A program made the position numbers and the translations under genes. DNA of 13,999 nucleotides, taken from a virus. Lineage: Duplodnaviria > Heunggongvirae > Uroviricota > Caudoviricetes. The notes beneath the pieces are model-generated. The model was not told where the DNA came from, did not search any database, and was given only the letters and a program-made list of their open reading frames with translations. The stretch covers positions 1-13,999 of IMG/VR virus record IMGVR_UViG_2700989510_000001, one strand, 5' to 3'. Shown here in pieces: positions 1 through 12,032 of the stretch; position 1 is the first letter of the stretch; every line of letters begins with the position of its first letter.

Positions 1-156
1 TTACTCCTCAGGTTCGTAAGCTGTGAAGACAGCGACCTCCGTCTGGCCGGTTCGGATTCGTACCTCGCAGAGGTCTTTCCTCGTTACCAGTGCCGTCACA
101 ATGACGGTTAAACAGATGACGATCAGGGCGATTAACATCGCCTTTTGCTGCTTCAT
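1..156 (-). CDS. hok: Hok/Gef family type I toxin, 51 aa
   Basis: Minus-strand translation MKQQKAMLIALIVICLTVIVTALVTRKDLCEVRIRTGQTEVAVFTAYEPEE: one N-terminal TM helix plus the conserved Hok motif (LTRK.LCE..R.G..EVA.F.AYE). AGGAG sits about 9 nt upstream of the ATG at 156; TAA stop at 1-3. The six-frame ORF extends in frame to 213 (70 aa), but the 51-aa form matches Hok family length. Confidence 0.8.
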   Translation of the reverse strand: MKQQKAMLIALIVICLTVIVTALVTRKDLCEVRIRTGQTEVAVFTAYEPEE

Positions 157-402
157 AGCCTGCTTCTCCTTGCCTTTCGGCACGTAAGAGGCTAACCTAC
201 GTTTGTGAAGCATAGATTGGGCCTCAGATTAATGTTAAACGTCTTGCAGGACGCGTAATGTTAACTGGGGCTTTTCTCTATCTGCCTTTTGGTGTTCATG
301 CCTGAGACAGATAGCCTCAAGCACCCGCAGCAATTCTACTTAACTCTCGCTTTACCGCAAACCGTTTTTACCCGATATGGGAATTCCCATATCGTAATGA
401 AT

Positions 403-507
403 TCAGTTCCCTAGTCGATCCATCAAAAACACAACCAGGCAGTAAACGCCCACAACAGCAATAACAGCCAGCGCACCTTCCATTGCCAGTGAAATATCAT
501 CCGACAT
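403..507 (-). CDS. hypothetical small hydrophobic peptide, 34 aa
   Basis: Hand translation of the minus strand gives MSDDISLAMEGALAVIAVVGVYCLVVFLMDRLGN with TGA stop at 403-405. A strong SD (AAAGGAGGGAAT) immediately precedes the ATG at 505-507. Below the 60-aa cutoff of the ORF track. Single predicted TM segment. Confidence 0.35.
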   Translation of the reverse strand: MSDDISLAMEGALAVIAVVGVYCLVVFLMDRLGN

Positions 508-622
508 ATTCCCTCCTTTGGTGTGAATCCCGGCGAACGTTTTTACCCCCACCGACAAATAACATATACTAAAAAATCAATAGCTATAGCAACGCCTGTA
601 ATTGCAAAGGCTTCAGGCCAGA

Positions 623-1336
623 TCATTGGCGCACCTCCTGCGGCGGTTCTGGTAGCGGCATCCAGTCGGTTACATTGCGGCTCTGTGTTTCGAAAAATTC
701 ATCACCATTACGGACTACATCAAAAAACTCACCGTCTCGATATTGCGCATAAAGAACGAATGCGCCATCACATAAAATAATTACGTGCTGACCATCATCC
801 GGCATTCGCTCACTACAGCTTATCCAACCATCCGGAGTTACCGGATAGTTGGTTGACGTTTCCGAGATTTCCCGAAAATTATTGGTTGACGAACCCTTAT
901 TTTCCCGAAAGTTTCCAGCCTGAAGCATGGCGGCGCGGCAGGCGTTCCATATTTCGGCAGCAATATCGCGCTCGCTATCGGTTAATTTGTACGTTGAAAC
1001 ATAGCCAGAGAGCATTTCTACGTTTTCCGGAGTTGCTTCTTCAGGCACTACCGGTGCTGGCTCACGTATTACAGGCTCGCCCATGCGTGATTCTCCCTGC
1101 GCCTCTTTCACCATGTGGTCATTGATTTGCTCCAGTCGCCGAACGTGCTCATCAGCTTCAAGCGCTCGCCGTTTCCAGATGGACAGGTCTTCACGAGCGC
1201 CCTGATATGCGTCACCGTATTCGCCGTTAAATACTGGCGCTGGCGGGGCGATGCGTCCAAGCAACTTATTTACCTCTTTCGCCATCGCGTCATATTTATC
1301 TAAATAGCGATTAGCTTCTAAGCAGACTCGGTGCAT
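623..1336 (-). CDS. prophage protein with C-terminal DUF551-like domain
   Basis: 237-aa ORF. C-terminal region WISCSERMPDDGQHVIILCDGAFVLYAQY...VTDWMPLPEPP resembles the DUF551 signature as I recall it. No convincing SD at the 1336 ATG; an internal ATG (MAKEV, about 1288) is an alternative start. Confidence 0.7.
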   Translation of the reverse strand: MHRVCLEANRYLDKYDAMAKEVNKLLGRIAPPAPVFNGEYGDAYQGAREDLSIWKRRALEADEHVRRLEQINDHMVKEAQGESRMGEPVIREPAPVVPEEATPENVEMLSGYVSTYKLTDSERDIAAEIWNACRAAMLQAGNFRENKGSSTNNFREISETSTNYPVTPDGWISCSERMPDDGQHVIILCDGAFVLYAQYRDGEFFDVVRNGDEFFETQSRNVTDWMPLPEPPQEVRQ

Positions 1337-5861: not shown

Positions 5862-6287
5862 TCAATGCACAACAACTGCATTACCAGGCTGACCACCACT
5901 GTTAGTCAGGGTGCCCCAGGCGATCGCTACAGCGATAAAATCATCCACATCTTTCACCAGCCGATCCCGTCGTTCGACGATCTCCCGGTAATATTCAGAA
6001 CTGTGACTGCGCATACGGGCCACCAGCAAAGGCGGCATCGCCTTTTCGATCGCCGGTAACAGCGCCTGAATTTTTTCAACCGCATCAGGCGTATCCTTCT
6101 CCACCCAGCGGAAAATTTTCTGGGTATTACGGGCCAGGGCTTCCGGATGGCTGTCGTCGTACAGTTCCGGGAACGTCATCCCAAGTTCGAAATAAGTCCG
6201 GGCTATTTCAGCTGCAGGCACTTTCTCACCATCAGGATATGCCCAGGCATTCATCGCCATGCGGATGTGTTCATGTTTGATTTTCAT
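5862..6287 (-). CDS. CII-position protein, YdaT-like
   Basis: 141-aa ORF starting MKIKHEHI, which I recall as the N-terminus of Rac YdaT-family proteins. ATG at 6285-6287 overlaps the upstream stop (ATGA). Sits between the cro-like gene and the replication initiator, the lambda cII position. Confidence 0.65.
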   Translation of the reverse strand: MKIKHEHIRMAMNAWAYPDGEKVPAAEIARTYFELGMTFPELYDDSHPEALARNTQKIFRWVEKDTPDAVEKIQALLPAIEKAMPPLLVARMRSHSSEYYREIVERRDRLVKDVDDFIAVAIAWGTLTNSGGQPGNAVVVH

Positions 6288-6609: not shown

Positions 6610-7254
6610 ATGGAAAGCCTTGGCATTAGGCTTAAGAAACTCAGAAAAGACAAAGGTCTGACCCAAGTTGAACTTGGCAAGCTTTCTGGCGTAACTGGGG
6701 TAACAATAGGATACTGGGAGAAAGATCTAAACGAACCAGGTAGCAAAGCTCTTAGTAAATTAGCCCTAGCACTAGGCACTACTGAGTCCTATCTCCTGTA
6801 TGGAGTATCATCTCCTGAATCATCCCTTGTGCAGAAAAATCCAGGTACCCAAATCCCATACCTTTCTTGGGGAGAAGCGATTTCTTTCCTAATATTAAAA
6901 GGAGAGAAAACTATGGGAACTGTCGACAGGATCACCACATTCTTTGATGTCAAGGAGGGAGATTTTGCCGTTTCAATGCCTGATGATACTATGCACAATC
7001 CATCAGGGTCCCCAAGCATTCCAGTTGGAGCCACAGTGATCATGAGGCCTGGCGAAAAATATAAAAATGGTAGCATCGTCGCAGTAATAGTCCCAGATCC
7101 ACTCACAAACGAACCATCCATGACTATAAAAAAATTAGTTATTGATGGAAAGCTCGTGTACTTAGCCCCCCTTAACCCACGCTATCAATCATCCTTACTT
7201 ACACCGGAATGTAACATCGTTGCTGTAGCAAAAGGTGTTCAGTTCAGCCTCTAG
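6610..7254 (+). CDS. cI: cI-like prophage repressor: N-terminal HTH_XRE + C-terminal S24 (LexA-like) peptidase domain
   Basis: 214-aa ORF. HTH LTQVELGKLSGVTGVTIGYWE. C-terminal block TIKKLVIDGKLVYLAPLNPRYQ parallels lambda cI [21 protein letters not shown] (catalytic Lys region). Ser-Met in AVSMPDD is the candidate nucleophile. Confidence 0.9.
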   Translation: MESLGIRLKKLRKDKGLTQVELGKLSGVTGVTIGYWEKDLNEPGSKALSKLALALGTTESYLLYGVSSPESSLVQKNPGTQIPYLSWGEAISFLILKGEKTMGTVDRITTFFDVKEGDFAVSMPDDTMHNPSGSPSIPVGATVIMRPGEKYKNGSIVAVIVPDPLTNEPSMTIKKLVIDGKLVYLAPLNPRYQSSLLTPECNIVAVAKGVQFSL

Positions 7255-8541: not shown

Positions 8542-8940
8542 TTTATCCTCCATTGAGGTTCTGGGTTAAAAATGGAGACCAACACGCTGTCACGTGTGGT
8601 CGTGCGCCGGACACGGATAAGAATCCGGTACTGACAGTTTACTGAAAGGATATTTCCCTGAAAAGTCAGGGCATAACGCGAAAGCGTACGGCGAAGCTCT
8701 TTCCCTTAGAAGGCTTGTCGTTAGATTTCTTCGAACGTGCGCTTCCGGTTGTGGCAATCCGCGAAATGGCGCGGCGGTAAGTATGGCGGGGTTATTCCTT
8801 CCCCATTGAGGACACCGGGTTGTCAGGTTGACCATACGCTTAAGTGACAACCCCGCTGCAACGCCCTCTGTTATCAATTTTCTGGTGACGTTTGGCGGTA
8901 TCAGTTTTACTCCGTGGCTGCTCTGCCGCCCTTTTTAAAG

Positions 8941-9088
8941 TGAATTTTGTGATGCGGTGAATGCGGCTCAGCGCACGCGGAACAGTTAAAACCAAAAACA
9001 GTGTTATGGGTGGATTCTCTGTATCCGGCGTTAATTGTTAACTGGTTAACGTCACCTGGAGGCACCAGGCACCGCATCACAAAATTCA
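8941..9088. repeat. perfect 19-bp inverted repeat pair flanking a 110-bp segment
   Basis: Left arm TGAATTTTGTGATGCGGTG (8941-8959); right arm CACCGCATCACAAAATTCA (9070-9088), its exact reverse complement. The match does not extend on either side. The right arm ends 17 nt before the ATG at 9106. Confidence 0.6.
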
Positions 9089-9105
9089 TTGTTGAGGACG
9101 CGATA

Positions 9106-9294
9106 ATGGAAACGTTATTACCAAACGTTAATACGTCTGAAGGTTGTTTTGATATTGGTGTTCTGCTCAGTAACCGGGAGTTTACTGAAGATGCCATTAA
9201 TATGAGGAAATATGAGCCTTATCTGCTCAATGATAATTCCATACTTTCCCGAATTGCTCTTCTTGAACTTGGTATTTTCGGAGAACGTCAATGA
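9106..9294 (+). CDS. small hypothetical protein, 62 aa (kil position of early-left operon)
   Basis: ATG at 9106 with GAGGA SD (ORF track frame begins at 9001). Stop overlaps the next ATG (ATGA at 9291-9294). First gene after the ORF-poor region and upstream of the exonuclease. Confidence 0.5.
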   Translation: METLLPNVNTSEGCFDIGVLLSNREFTEDAINMRKYEPYLLNDNSILSRIALLELGIFGERQ

Positions 9295-9572: not shown

Positions 9573-12032
9573 ATGAGCACTGATAAAGAAGAATTTGCGC
9601 TATATTGCGAAGCAAAAAATGACAAAGTCAGAAAACGTCTGGGAATTAAAGGTGGTTTTTACTGGACTACAGCAAAAAAATTATCTGTTGCCATCTCCCG
9701 CTGCATTACCGCAATGGATGACAACGATTATGATGAAGACGACTTTAAAAAACCCGTTCGCGTCCATTTACCCGTTGTGAATGACCTTCCACCTGAAGGC
9801 GTGTTTGATACCGAATTCTGCAACCGATACGAAAAAGGCGGGGAAGATGGCATTACAATGGTATTTATCGCGCCCTCTCCCTCCGTGCAGGAGAAACCAG
9901 CCAGTACTGACAATACCAACGTCAACGGCGAAGACATGACGGAGATTGAGGAGAATATGCTCCTGCCGGTTTCTGGTCAGGAGCTGCCCATTCGCTGGCT
10001 TGCGCAACACGGCAGCGAAAAACCAGTAACGCACGTTGCACGGGAAGAACTTCAGGCATTACATATAGCACGGGCGGAAGAACTGCCGGCTGTTACTGCC
10101 CTGGCCATTTCCCACAACACAAAGCTGCTCGACCCGCTGGAGATTCGCGACCTTCATAAACTGGCACGCGACACTGACAAAGTTTTCCCTAATCCCGGTA
10201 ATTCAGACCTGGGACTGATAACTGCTTTTTTCGAGGCATACCTGGACGCTGACTACACTGATCGGGGTCTGCTGACAAAAGAGTGGATGAAAGGAAATCG
10301 TGTTTCGCGTATCACCCGTACGGCTTCCGGTGCAAATGCCGGTGGCGGGAACAAAACCGATCGCAATCCGAATTTAGTACACACCTTCGATACGCTGGAT
10401 GTGGAGATTGCAGCAGCCACACTTCCGATGGATTTTAATATTTATGAAATTCCGGGCAGCGTTTATCGTCGCGCAAAAGAAATCGTCCTGAAAAGAGAAA
10501 GTCCGTTCAAAGAATGGTCCGCAGCACTTCGCGCAACCCCGGGTATTCTGGACTATTCCCGCGCCGCTATTTTTGCACTTATCCGGAGCGCTCACCCTGA
10601 GTTTTATCACTACCCGGGACGCCTTCAGGGGTATATCAACGCCTACTTAACGGAGACTGATCACGAGAACCCCAGCAAGGAAACTCTCACTGCTGCACGA
10701 CATACACCGGAAAAAGATATCCTGGAAGAAGTTAACCGCGAACTGGCTGCTAAGCAGGAAACAGAAGAAGAAAATGATGAAGAAAAACCGCAACCATCTT
10801 GCGCAATGGCAGATGAACAGGCAACGGCTGAAACAGTGGAACCGGATGCAACTGAACATCATCAGGACACGCAGCCGCTGGATGCTCAGTCACAGGTAAA
10901 TTCTGTTGATGCGAAATATCAGAAACTGCGGGCAGAACTCCATGAAGCCCGGAAAAACATTCCGCCCCAAAATCCTGTCGATGCAGACAAATTACTGGCT
11001 GCCTCTCGCGGAGAATTTGTTGAAGGGATTAGCGACCCGAATGATCCGAAATGGATTAAGGGGATCCAGACCCGCGATTCTGTGTACCAGAATCAGCCAG
11101 AAACGGAACAGAACGACCAGAAAGCGGAACAGAACAGCCCAAATACGCAACAAAACGAGCCAGAAACGAAACAACCTGAACCAGTAGTGCAACAGGAACC
11201 GGAAAAGATCTGCACCACCTGCGGTCAGACCGGCGGCGGCAACTGCCCTGATTGTGGCGCGGTGATGGGCGACGCAACATACCAGGAAACATTCGATGAC
11301 AAGAACCTGGTTGAAGTTCAGGAAGACGATTCGGAGAAAATGGAAGGCGCTGAACATCCACACAAGGAGAATGCTGGCAGCGCTCAGGACCACGCCAGCG
11401 ATAGTGAAACTGGCGAGACGGCAGATCCCTTAATTACGGTGAACGGTCATCACGTTATCACATCCACCAGCAGGACGTGTGACCATCTAATGATCGACCT
11501 TGAAACCATGGGAAAAAATCCTGATGCCCCGATTATCTCAATAGGTGCAATATTTTTCGATCCGCAAACCGGAGATATGGGACCGGAATTTAGTAAGACT
11601 ATCGATCTGGAAACTGCTGGCGGAGTCATTGATCGGGACACCATTAAATGGTGGCTTAAGCAATCACGCGAAGCGCAATCTGCCATTATGACCGATGAAA
11701 TCCCGTTAGATGATGCACTGTTACAATTGCGGGAATTTATCGACGAAAACTCCGGTGAATTCTTTGTTCAGGTCTGGGGAAATGGAGCCAACTTCGACAA
11801 CACGATTTTGCGCCGTTCATACGAACGGCAGGGGATCCCCTGCCCGTGGCGTTACTACAACGATCGCGATGTGCGCACAATCGTTGAGCTGGGGAAAGCC
11901 ATAGACTTCGATGCCAGAACGGCTATTCCATTCGAAGGTGAGCGCCATAATGCACTTGATGACGCCCGTTACCAGGCAAAATACGTTTCAGTTATCTGGC
12001 AAAAACTGATCCCGAGTCAGGCTGATTCTTAA
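9573..12032 (+). CDS. prophage exonuclease: RecE-like N-terminal region + zinc ribbon + C-terminal DnaQ-like DEDDh 3'-5' exonuclease domain
   Basis: 819-aa ORF with GAGGT SD. N-terminal blocks ([70 protein letters not shown]) match what I recall of the RecE (exodeoxyribonuclease VIII) N-terminal region. [16 protein letters not shown] is a zinc-ribbon-like motif. C-terminus carries DEDDh motifs: MIDLETMG (D-x-E), [12 protein letters not shown] (D), HNALDDARY (H-x3-D). Confidence 0.9.

What the first reader, a model, noticed from the sequence alone, without database searches (positions are those of the whole stretch)
1..507. Hok/Gef toxin locus inside the prophage, with an upstream strongly-SD small hydrophobic peptide ORF and no adjacent relBE
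The 51-aa Hok-family toxin sits at the window edge. Its reading frame extends in frame upstream to 213 (70 codons), which is unexpected if a Mok-like frame is normally out of frame with hok. Immediately upstream on the same strand (403-507) is a 34-aa single-TM peptide ORF with an excellent SD, not in the ORF track. The 214-400 interval should contain the hok leader and an antisense Sok-like RNA on the plus strand, which I cannot delimit by eye. Two small membrane peptides in tandem could both be toxic.
Basis: partly seen in the sequence, partly recalled or inferred. Interest (0 to 1): 0.45.

Follow-up and report, generated by a model that had tools for sequence, protein, structure and literature searches.

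The report
Intact prophage hokD toxin–antitoxin locus
This is an ordinary, complete copy of the well-known hok/mok/sok RNA-controlled toxin locus (the uncut form of E. coli K-12 hokD) in a lambda-like prophage, preceded by two small membrane-peptide genes that look real, one with published translation evidence, but have no known function.

Summary
Window 1-156 (-) encodes a 51-aa Hok with the same sequence as K-12 HokD. An in-frame 70-codon mok-type ORF reaches 213. The structured hok leader spans 151-326 (Rfam RF01794, 118 bits, full length). A Sok-type antisense RNA is predicted at about 205-281 (+). The 3' fold-back element and terminator lie just left of the window.

K-12 hokD lost this leader to relBE, so "no relBE" marks the intact form. 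The in-frame mok is not odd. K-12 mokC/hokC are annotated in frame, and only the R1/R100 type is out of frame.

The 34-aa ORF (403-507, -) is real. It is annotated in RefSeq as a hypothetical protein. Its Shine-Dalgarno site is conserved, and pN/pS is below 1 in all pairs but two that lack synonymous differences. A diverged 30-aa relative sits in the same place in other phages. Hücker et al. 2017 list it as ribosome-covered in O157:H7 Sakai (XECs145, RCV 4.35 in LB).

That active translation, its net acidic charge and the absence of a recognisable antisense RNA argue against a second silent type I toxin. Its function is unknown. It is usually, but not always, linked to hokD. Overall this is a known system with a minor small-protein lead.

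The parts
1..156 (-). hok toxin gene (51 aa, protein identical to K-12 HokD); stop codon at 1-3
   Evidence: ORF list. Pfam HOK_GEF E 3e-23. RefSeq hokD WP_000813254.1 in identical genomes. Alignment with K-12 hokD.
1..213 (-). mok-type overlapping reading frame. It has 70 codons and is in frame with hok. ATG at 213-211, with GAGG (225-222) 8 nt upstream.
   Evidence: The ATG aligns with the K-12 mokC ATG. mokC and hokC share a stop codon in the K-12 annotation.
151..326 (-). Structured 5' leader of hok mRNA, including the Sok target region, the mok SD and start, and the hok SD AAGGAG at 171-166
   Evidence: Rfam RF01794, 118.5 bits, model positions 1-157 of 157. The model lies on the hok sense strand, as it also does in K-12 hokC and R100.
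315..328 (-). 5' tac element GCGGGUGCUUGAGG. It pairs with the 3' fbi element CCUCAACGCACCCGC, which lies outside the window.
   Evidence: The minimum-free-energy fold of the full mRNA from an identical genome pairs the two ends, z = -7.5.
333..361 (-). Predicted hok promoter, TTTGCG-17-TAGAAT; transcript start near 326-328
   Evidence: Read from the sequence. The homologous TTGGCG-17-TAGAAT in phage Tritos was picked up by the scanner. The block is conserved across all upstream classes.
170..198 (+). Predicted Sok promoter, TTGCCT-17-TAACCT; the -35 hexamer overlaps the hok SD
   Evidence: Read from the sequence. It is placed so that transcription would start at about 205, the position equivalent to the annotated sokC 5' end. 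It is an inference. The scanner did not list it.
205..281 (+). Predicted Sok-type antisense RNA. It has a single-stranded 5' end over the mok start codon, then a long hairpin and a U-rich tail.
   Evidence: Mapped from the annotated K-12 sokC through alignment A1. Fold -30.2 kcal/mol, z = -4.5. The ends have not been mapped experimentally.
373..394 (.). Perfect 22-bp palindrome CGATATGGGAA/TTCCCATATCG, between the 34-aa ORF stop and the hok -35 hexamer
   Evidence: It also occurs upstream of hokD in loci that lack the 34-aa ORF (L027 type). Role unknown.
403..507 (-). 34-aa single-TM peptide gene (MSDDISLAMEGALAVIAVVGVYCLVVFLMDRLGN); SD AAGGAGGG at 518-511
   Evidence: RefSeq WP_001278450.1. 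pN/pS 0.07-0.6 in most pairs. A diverged 30-aa relative occupies the same position in phages Tritos, Evi, mEp460 and HannyBb. RIBOseq entry XECs145 in PMC5597208.
543..626 (-). 27-aa hydrophobic peptide ORF (MIWPEAFAITGVAIAIDFLVYVICRWG); its ATG overlaps the stop of the DUF551 gene (ATGA)
   Evidence: Relatives (MTWPEA...ICRWG) lie directly in front of the hok promoter in other prophages, behind different upstream genes.
623..1336 (-). DUF551 gene, the upstream neighbour in the phage rightward (nin-region) operon
   Evidence: Pfam DUF551 E 5e-21. RefSeq annotation.

Best explanation
Window 1-361, plus about 95 nt to the left of the window, is a complete hok/mok/sok type I toxin-antitoxin locus of the chromosomal and prophage hokC/hokD type. 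It is the intact counterpart of the truncated hokD (relF) of the K-12 Qin prophage. It sits in the nin region of a Qin-like lambdoid prophage, between the DUF551 gene and the rem/DUF968/rusA/Q genes, and is transcribed in the same direction as the phage rightward operon.

The mechanism is inferred from the R1 paradigm and rests on the sequence elements found here.
- A constitutive promoter at 333-361 would make a stable hok mRNA. Its 5' tac element pairs with the 3' fbi element, which keeps mok and hok untranslatable.
- Slow 3' trimming would open the RNA.
- The short Sok RNA (about 205-281, + strand) pairs over the mok start region. This blocks mok translation, and hok translation is coupled to mok. 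It also triggers decay of the mRNA.
- If Sok supply stops, Hok is made and permeabilises the inner membrane.

Here Mok is simply an N-terminally extended Hok, as in mokC/hokC.

The two upstream ORFs (27 aa at 543-626 and 34 aa at 403-507) are genuine small membrane-protein genes of the prophage with unknown function. They are separate from the hok/sok control circuit because they end upstream of the hok promoter. The 34-aa gene is expressed in lysogens.
For: Hok domain and identity to HokD.

The full-length leader matches the covariance model at twice the gathering score.

The mok ATG and SD align with K-12 mokC, which is annotated in frame with hokC.

The Sok hairpin with its U tail lies where sokC is annotated.

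The fbi element and an intrinsic terminator sit immediately left of the window in genomes identical to the window over window 1-700. The complete 423-nt RNA folds with 5'-3' end pairing, z = -7.5.

K-12 hokD shares sequence with the window only from about 20 nt before the hok ATG onward. Upstream of that it is relE.

Prophage context is shown by Cro, a cI-like repressor, P, DnaT-like, DicB, DicF, xis and int, and by DUF968, RusA and Q downstream.

For the 34-aa ORF:
- The SD is conserved in both diverged classes.
- pN/pS is 0.07-0.6 in most pairs.
- It is present on roughly 1000 or more contigs, always named hypothetical.
- RIBOseq in Sakai gave translatome RPKM 346, RCV 4.35 and coverage 0.99 in LB.
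Against: No transcript ends, toxicity or killing were measured here. The Sok and hok promoters are weak matches to consensus, and the simple scanner did not list them in the window. The fbi element and terminator are not in the window itself.

The RIBOseq signal for XECs145 comes from a strain with several near-identical copies of the region (3-5 places per O157:H7 record), so it cannot be assigned to one copy. The ORF reported there is a longer 54-codon version.

pN/pS rests on few substitutions in a 30-34-codon gene. Two near-identical pairs have no synonymous differences, and the highest finite ratio is 0.84.
Confidence: 0.85

Rival explanations
1. The 34-aa peptide, and perhaps the 27-aa one, is a second type I-like membrane toxin, so that two or three toxic peptides lie in tandem.
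For: It is a short single-TM peptide with a strong SD next to a known toxin. A promoter-like site on the opposite strand (483-510, +) would give an RNA antisense to its SD.
Against: That promoter-like site is one of 4 found against 1.8 expected by chance. I did not find it at the same position in the 30-aa class when reading the sequences. No Rfam family matches there. No toxin or defence-type family matched in Pfam, PHROGs or NCBIfam; PADLOC was not searched.

The peptide has a net acidic charge, with 4 acidic residues and 1 basic.

It is strongly ribosome-covered in exponentially growing Sakai in LB (RCV 4.35). Type I toxins are normally translationally silent under those conditions.
Confidence: 0.08
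2. The small upstream peptides are functional partners of Hok. For example, they could be membrane-level modulators or protectors that keep read-through expression of hok harmless during lytic growth, or enhancers of killing.
For: There is strong physical linkage. In a pattern scan for the peptide family, 95 of 105 loci with enough flank have Hok within 700 nt downstream.

The 27-aa and the 30/34-aa families stay in front of hokD while the genes further upstream change.

Four small hydrophobic ORF types in three unrelated families (27, 30/34 and 59 aa) occupy this position in 49 of 77 leader-bearing loci.
Against: Linkage in a redundant sample of E. coli prophages may reflect only shared ancestry. 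28 of 77 loci have none of these ORFs. About 5 loci carry the 30-aa ORF with no hok and no hok-leader RNA match. The canonical R1, hokC and K-12 systems work without such a peptide. No interaction test was possible.
Confidence: 0.08
3. This hok copy is a dead relic, like hokA, C, D and E of K-12, and no longer functions as a toxin-antitoxin pair.
For: Chromosomal hok loci of K-12 were reported inactive (Pedersen and Gerdes 1999, as cited in PMC5630033). The predicted promoters are imperfect.
Against: None of the K-12 lesions is present. There is no IS element and no relBE replacement. The leader matches the model end to end. The tac-fbi pairing, mok SD and ATG, hok SD and Sok hairpin are all intact. 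The Hok protein is unchanged in hundreds of genomes.
Confidence: 0.1
4. The 34-aa ORF is a chance ORF in an intergenic spacer and is not a gene.
For: It is very short and matches no family. Other frames in the same stretch are also open.
Against: A strong SD at the right spacing is kept in two classes whose DNA has diverged. Synonymous changes exceed non-synonymous ones. About 52% amino-acid identity with the 30-aa class was counted by eye over 29 aligned positions, with the motif YCLxVxLM(D/E)(R/H)L. Ribosome coverage is published, and PGAP annotates the ORF.
Confidence: 0.05

Closest known systems
hokC/mokC/sokC (gef) locus of E. coli K-12
   Same: The architecture and homologous sequence are the same. 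The leader begins GGGUGCUUGAGGCU.UCUGUCUCAGGCAU. mok is in frame with hok, with GAGG 8 nt before the ATG. The antisense RNA starts 9 nt inside mok. Both loci score about 118 bits on RF01794.
   Different: The toxin is the HokD variant. The window carries an 18-nt insertion in the hairpin loop of the Sok target. The location is a prophage nin region and not the nhaA neighbourhood. K-12 hokC has IS186 next to it, and this locus has no IS.
hokD (relF) downstream of relBE in the K-12 cryptic prophage Qin
   Same: The Hok protein, hok SD, 3' UTR, fbi element and terminator are identical. The downstream neighbours are the same (rem-like, DUF968/ydfU, Q). The prophage type is the same, with DicF, DicB and ydfA.
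   Different: K-12 lacks everything upstream of about 20 nt before the hok ATG. That means no tac element, no mok start, no Sok target and no hok promoter, with relE in their place. The window keeps all of these. In 80 IMG/VR HokD loci, 77 have the leader and 2 have relE.
hok/mok/sok (parB) of plasmids R1 and R100
   Same: The set of elements is the same: Hok, a 70-codon mok, a structured leader matching RF01794, tac-fbi end pairing and an antisense Sok.
   Different: In R100, mok (410-622) is out of frame with hok (468-626). Here and in mokC it is in frame. The toxin sequence is diverged, and the replicon is a conjugative plasmid and not a prophage.
XECs145, a 'novel small gene' of E. coli O157:H7 Sakai (Hücker et al. 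2017, PMC5597208)
   Same: The published peptide ends with the exact 34-aa sequence of window 403-507. [quoted passage not shown]
   Different: It was reported as a 54-codon ORF from an upstream alternative start. The SD-preceded ATG gives 34 aa. No function was assigned.

Membership tests
[quoted passage not shown] | A toxin ORF of about 50 aa with the Hok/Gef domain | tested here: met
   PF01848 E 3e-23, covering profile positions 1-42 of 42. PHROG 251 E 8e-33.
[quoted passage not shown] | A structured hok mRNA leader upstream of hok | tested here: met
   RF01794 at 118.5 bits against a gathering score of 59, model positions 1-157 of 157, at 151-326 (-).
[quoted passage not shown] | An overlapping mok reading frame that starts upstream of hok, has its own SD and is read across the hok start | tested here: met
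   ORF 1-213 (-), with GAGG 8 nt before the ATG. It is positionally homologous to the annotated K-12 mokC. Translational coupling itself was not testable.
[quoted passage not shown] | A cis-encoded antisense Sok RNA over the mok start region, with its own promoter and terminator | tested here: inconclusive
   The hairpin plus U tail (z = -4.5) and a TTGCCT-17-TAACCT promoter lie at the position of the annotated sokC. However, the scanner does not list the promoter, and no transcript data exist for this locus.
[quoted passage not shown] | A 3' fold-back (fbi) element that pairs with the 5' tac element, followed by a terminator | tested here: met
   These lie outside the window. In L002, which is identical to the window over 1-700, CCTCAACGCACCCGC and a terminator follow hok. 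The minimum-free-energy fold pairs the two ends.
[quoted passage not shown] | Hok kills when Sok is depleted (post-segregational killing or membrane damage) | not testable with these tools
   This needs experiments.
relBE-hokD operon arrangement of K-12 Qin | relE lies immediately upstream of hokD, and the hok leader is absent | tested here: not met
   The alignment shows that homology to K-12 stops about 20 nt before the hok ATG, and the window has the leader at that point. There is no relE in the flank.
Type I toxin (for the 34-aa ORF at 403-507) | A small hydrophobic membrane peptide | tested here: met
   The sequence has one hydrophobic stretch (ALAVIAVVGVYCLVVFL). PMC5597208 predicts an inner-membrane location.
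Type I toxin (for the 34-aa ORF at 403-507) | A cognate antisense or trans RNA antitoxin | tested here: inconclusive
   There is only a chance-level promoter-like site at 483-510 (+). No Rfam match was found.
Type I toxin (for the 34-aa ORF at 403-507) | Translation is kept off during normal growth | tested here: not met
   Published RIBOseq gives RCV 4.35 with coverage 0.99 in LB, and RCV 1.14 in BHI.
Type I toxin (for the 34-aa ORF at 403-507) | Toxicity on expression | not testable with these tools
   This needs inducible expression.

The most novel reading that the evidence does not exclude
The small membrane peptides kept directly in front of hokD (the 27-aa ...ICRWG family and the 30/34-aa ...YCLxVxLM(D/E)(R/H)L family) might be functional partners of the Hok module and not just neighbours. 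They could, for instance, tune or neutralise Hok in the membrane while the phage transcribes through the locus during lytic growth. That would add a protein layer to a system thought to be controlled only by RNA.
Probability: 0.07. Interest if true: 0.6.

Novelty: already known. Interest (0 to 1): 0.22.

Why it matters
The result mostly tidies up the finding. This stretch is the uncut form of hokD, with all regulatory parts present. That explains why K-12 hokD looks orphaned behind relBE, and it removes the supposed anomalies of the in-frame mok and the missing relBE.

Two practical points follow.
- The Rfam 'sok' model reports the hok sense strand, so the true Sok lies on the opposite strand inside the hit.
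- Hok enrichment in prophages is already documented (bioRxiv 10.1101/2025.08.07.668861).

One open item remains. A narrow, translated family of small membrane peptides sits almost always just upstream of hokD and has no known role. It is a cheap target for small-protein work in EHEC prophages.

Tried and rejected
- **Family searches on the small ORFs.** Pfam, PHROGs and NCBIfam gave nothing significant for the 34-, 30-, 27- and 59-aa ORFs.
- I replaced them with an exhaustive phmmer run, which found only 7 near-identical clusters, and an IUPAC DNA pattern scan.
- **Literature search by identifier.** Searching for the peptide sequence, WP_001278450 and the UniProt id found no paper. The hit came from the supplements of PMC5597208.
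- **Spurious cluster mates.** One exact-match cluster look-up returned DUF551 proteins for the 27-aa peptide and xanthine dehydrogenase proteins for the 34-aa peptide. Inspection of the DUF551 sequences showed they do not contain the 27-aa peptide, so I ignored these mates.
- **Antisense promoter for the 34-aa ORF.** I considered one at 483-510 (+). I rejected it as evidence because the scan is at chance level and the site is not positionally conserved in the 30-aa class.
- **The palindrome as a terminator.** I considered the 22-bp palindrome as an intrinsic terminator. No U tract follows it on either strand, so this is not supported.
- **Alternative toxin downstream of the hok-less 30-aa ORF.** I looked in L145 and found no Rfam hit and no Hok-like ORF.

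Full report
**What is in the sequence**

The - strand of window 1-213 carries a 70-codon ORF. Its last 51 codons (156-1) are a Hok toxin, matching Pfam HOK_GEF at E 3e-23 and PHROG 251 'MokW-like host killing' at E 8e-33. Identical DNA over window 1-700 occurs in E. coli genomes, where PGAP names the gene hokD (WP_000813254.1). About 660 of 5426 complete genomes hold at least 80% of that stretch.

A gathering-threshold Rfam scan gives a full-length match of RF01794 at 151-326 on the - strand. It scores 118.5 bits against a gathering score of 59 and covers model positions 1-157 of 157, ending at the hok AUG.

The model is named 'sok', but it describes the hok sense strand. In K-12 it hits 902-1054 (-) of locus L003, whereas the annotated sokC lies at 953-1011 (+). 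In R100 it also hits the hok strand. The hit is therefore the hok mRNA leader, and the real Sok must lie inside it on the + strand.

**Anatomy of the locus**

I aligned the window locus, extended leftwards using the identical genome FORC_042 (L002), with K-12 hokC/mokC/sokC and K-12 relE-hokD. The alignment shows the following.

- The leader, from GGGTGCTTGAGG onward, is homologous to the hokC leader.
- The ATG at 213-211 aligns with the mokC ATG. Both have GAGG 8 nt upstream.
- K-12 hokD matches the window only from about 20 nt before the hok ATG, through the coding region and the 3' UTR. Upstream of that point K-12 carries relE.

Transferring the annotated sokC ends through this alignment places Sok at about 205-281 (+). 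That stretch folds into a long hairpin with a U-rich tail and a free 5' end over the mok start (-30.2 kcal/mol, z = -4.5).

Reading the sequence gives two promoters. TTGCCT-17-TAACCT (170-198, +) is placed to start Sok at about 205. TTTGCG-17-TAGAAT (361-333, -) is placed to start hok mRNA at about 326-328. The homologous hok promoter in phage Tritos (TTGGCG-17-TAGAAT) passes the scanner. The window versions do not pass it, so both are inferences.

The fold-back element and terminator are not in the window. In L002 the hok stop is followed by CCTCAACGCACCCGC, which is complementary to the 5' GCGGGTGCTTGAGG, and by a terminator hairpin with a T run. The 423-nt RNA folds with the two ends paired (-176 kcal/mol, z = -7.5). 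Every sequence element that defines a hok/mok/sok locus is therefore present and unbroken.

**The two supposed anomalies**

First, the in-frame mok. In R100, which is the R1 type, the 70-codon mok (410-622) is out of frame with hok (468-626).

In K-12, however, mokC (16751-16960) and hokC (16751-16903) share a stop codon and so are in frame. An IncFII plasmid variant is also in frame. The in-frame state is the normal one for the subfamily to which this locus belongs.

Second, the missing relBE. The K-12 relBE-hokD junction is the derived state, which lost the leader. Among 80 IMG/VR loci encoding the identical HokD, 77 keep the leader and 2 have relE in its place. PMC5630033 cites Pedersen and Gerdes 1999 for K-12 hokD being inactive.

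**Genomic context**

The window is a Qin-like lambdoid prophage.

- Integrase, excisionase, an exonuclease VIII-like ORF, DicB, DicF RNA (8880-8931) and a ydfA-like ORF lie on the + strand.
- A cI-like repressor is at 6610-7254.
- On the - strand lie Cro, a YdaT-domain ORF, DnaT-like and P-like replication genes, DUF1627, DUF977, DUF4406, Ead/Ea22 and DUF551.
- Beyond the left edge come a rem-like ORF, DUF968, RusA and Q. This is the same order as rem-ydfU-Q next to K-12 hokD.

Enrichment of hok in prophages is already published (bioRxiv 10.1101/2025.08.07.668861).

**The small upstream ORFs**

The 34-aa ORF (403-507, -) starts at an ATG preceded by AAGGAGGG. RefSeq annotates it as hypothetical protein WP_001278450.1. 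It occurs on roughly a thousand or more contigs, always unnamed.

An exhaustive phmmer search of 1.84 billion representative proteins found only 7 clusters, all near-identical. The family is therefore very narrow.

tblastn against phages found a diverged 30-aa relative, (M)VLVLKCALAIAAVMAIYCLAVVLMDRLSD, translated from a GTG start. It has its own AGGAGG and lies directly upstream of the hokD promoter in phages Tritos, Evi, mEp460 and HannyBb, although the genes further upstream differ.

The two classes share about 52% identity over 29 positions, which I counted by eye. They differ by many synonymous changes. Nei-Gojobori pN/pS is 0.07-0.6 in most pairs. Two near-identical pairs have no synonymous differences, and the highest finite ratio is 0.84. 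The counts are small.

The exact peptide ends entry XECs145 of Hücker et al. 2017 (PMC5597208). That entry reports:

| Condition | Transcriptome RPKM | Translatome RPKM | RCV | Coverage |
|---|---|---|---|---|
| LB | 79 | 346 | 4.35 | 0.99 |
| BHI | not recorded here | not recorded here | 1.14 | not recorded here |

[quoted passage not shown] One caveat applies. O157:H7 genomes hold 3-5 copies of this region, so the reads are not copy-specific.

Three points speak against a classical silent type I toxin. It is actively translated in healthy cultures. It has 4 acidic residues and 1 basic. It lacks any supported antisense RNA, with only a chance-level promoter-like site at 483-510 (+). Toxicity itself remains untested.

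A second ORF of 27 aa (543-626, -) overlaps the DUF551 stop codon by ATGA. Relatives (MTWPEA...ICRWG) abut the hok promoter in other prophages, behind different upstream genes.

**Linkage to hok**

In the 77 leader-bearing IMG/VR loci, the upstream 650 nt holds the following:

| Upstream small ORF(s) | Loci |
|---|---|
| 27-aa family only | 16 |
| 59-aa two-helix ORF | 15 |
| 30-aa ORF | 10 |
| 27 + 34 aa (the window's arrangement) | 7 |
| 27 + 30 aa | 1 |
| None of these | 28 |

A DNA pattern scan for the 30/34-aa family found Hok within 700 nt downstream in 95 of 105 loci with enough flank. About 5 loci carry the 30-aa ORF with no hok and no hok-leader RNA. The peptide gene and hok are therefore usually neighbours but can be separated. 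The sample is redundant, so shared ancestry is the simplest explanation.

In the window, the 34-aa ORF and a perfect 22-bp palindrome (373-394) lie between two copies of CGTTTTTACCC (363-373 and 538-548; 0.01 expected by chance). In loci such as L012, the 27-aa ORF runs straight into the single copy of that motif and then the hok promoter. The roughly 175-bp segment therefore looks like an insertion or a short-homology recombination product.

**Verdict**

The thing observed is a known system in its intact form. The two 'unexpected' features are normal for this subfamily.

The one item not yet explained in the literature I could search is the role of the small membrane peptides in front of hokD. 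I rate that a modest lead, not a discovery.

Noticed in passing
window 373-394: A perfect 22-bp palindrome, CGATATGGGAATTCCCATATCG, centred on an EcoRI site. It starts 8 nt after the 34-aa ORF stop and lies about 47-68 nt upstream of the predicted hok transcript start. No T run follows on either strand. It also occurs in front of hokD where the 34-aa ORF is absent (L027 type), and in a diverged form in L015. Its role (operator, insulator or RNA hairpin) is unknown.
   Followed up: partly
window 363-373 and 538-548: The 11-nt direct repeat CGTTTTTACCC brackets the segment that holds the 34-aa ORF and the palindrome. Loci such as L012 have one copy, with the 27-aa ORF abutting the hok promoter. 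The roughly 175-bp segment therefore looks inserted or recombined in.
   Followed up: partly
window 543-626 (-): A 27-aa hydrophobic ORF whose ATG overlaps the DUF551 stop (ATGA). A conserved family (M.WPEA...ICRWG) lies just upstream of hokD behind different genes. A few copies carry early stops or frameshifts (L037, L078, L085).
   Followed up: partly
L011 1560-1870 (IMG/VR): In 15 of 80 HokD loci, a different 59-aa ORF with two hydrophobic stretches (MKNALQFLFVAFWLF...CIEYWR) sits 89 nt upstream of the hok transcript start. It has no PHROG match.
   Followed up: no
window 151-326; L003 902-1054; L091 294-470: Rfam RF01794, labelled 'sok antitoxin', matches the hok sense strand (the leader up to the hok AUG) in the window, in K-12 hokC and in R100. 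The annotated sokC lies on the opposite strand inside the hit.
   Followed up: yes
window 15-18 (-: TACG, Tyr47 codon of hok): The Tyr codon near the Hok C-terminus is TAC followed by G, which is the TadA A-to-I editing motif. PMC5630033 reports that editing recodes Tyr to Cys in the hokC, hokD and hokE mRNAs.
   Followed up: partly
window 8880-8931 (+) and 9001-9294 (+): A DicF sRNA (Rfam RF00039, 75 bits) is followed by a DicB-domain ORF. The leftward operon of this prophage is therefore of the Qin dicBF type.
   Followed up: partly
window 235-252 (loop of the Sok/hok hairpin): An 18-nt insertion relative to K-12 hokC (hok sense ACGCGTCCTGCAAGACGT). It forms its own small stem at the tip of the Sok terminator hairpin.
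   Followed up: no
window 9573-12032 (+): An 819-aa ORF that combines an exonuclease VIII (RecE-like) N-terminal region with a C-terminal Rv2179c-like 3'-5' exoribonuclease domain.
   Followed up: no
window 5862-6287 (-): A 141-aa ORF in the cII position, just downstream of cro, carries a YdaT_toxin domain (Pfam E 7e-10).
   Followed up: no
L145 5121-5234 (IMG/VR): The 30-aa ...YCLAVVLMERLSD ORF occurs without any hok locus downstream. A converging 120-aa gene follows instead. This shows that the peptide gene can exist apart from hok.
   Followed up: partly
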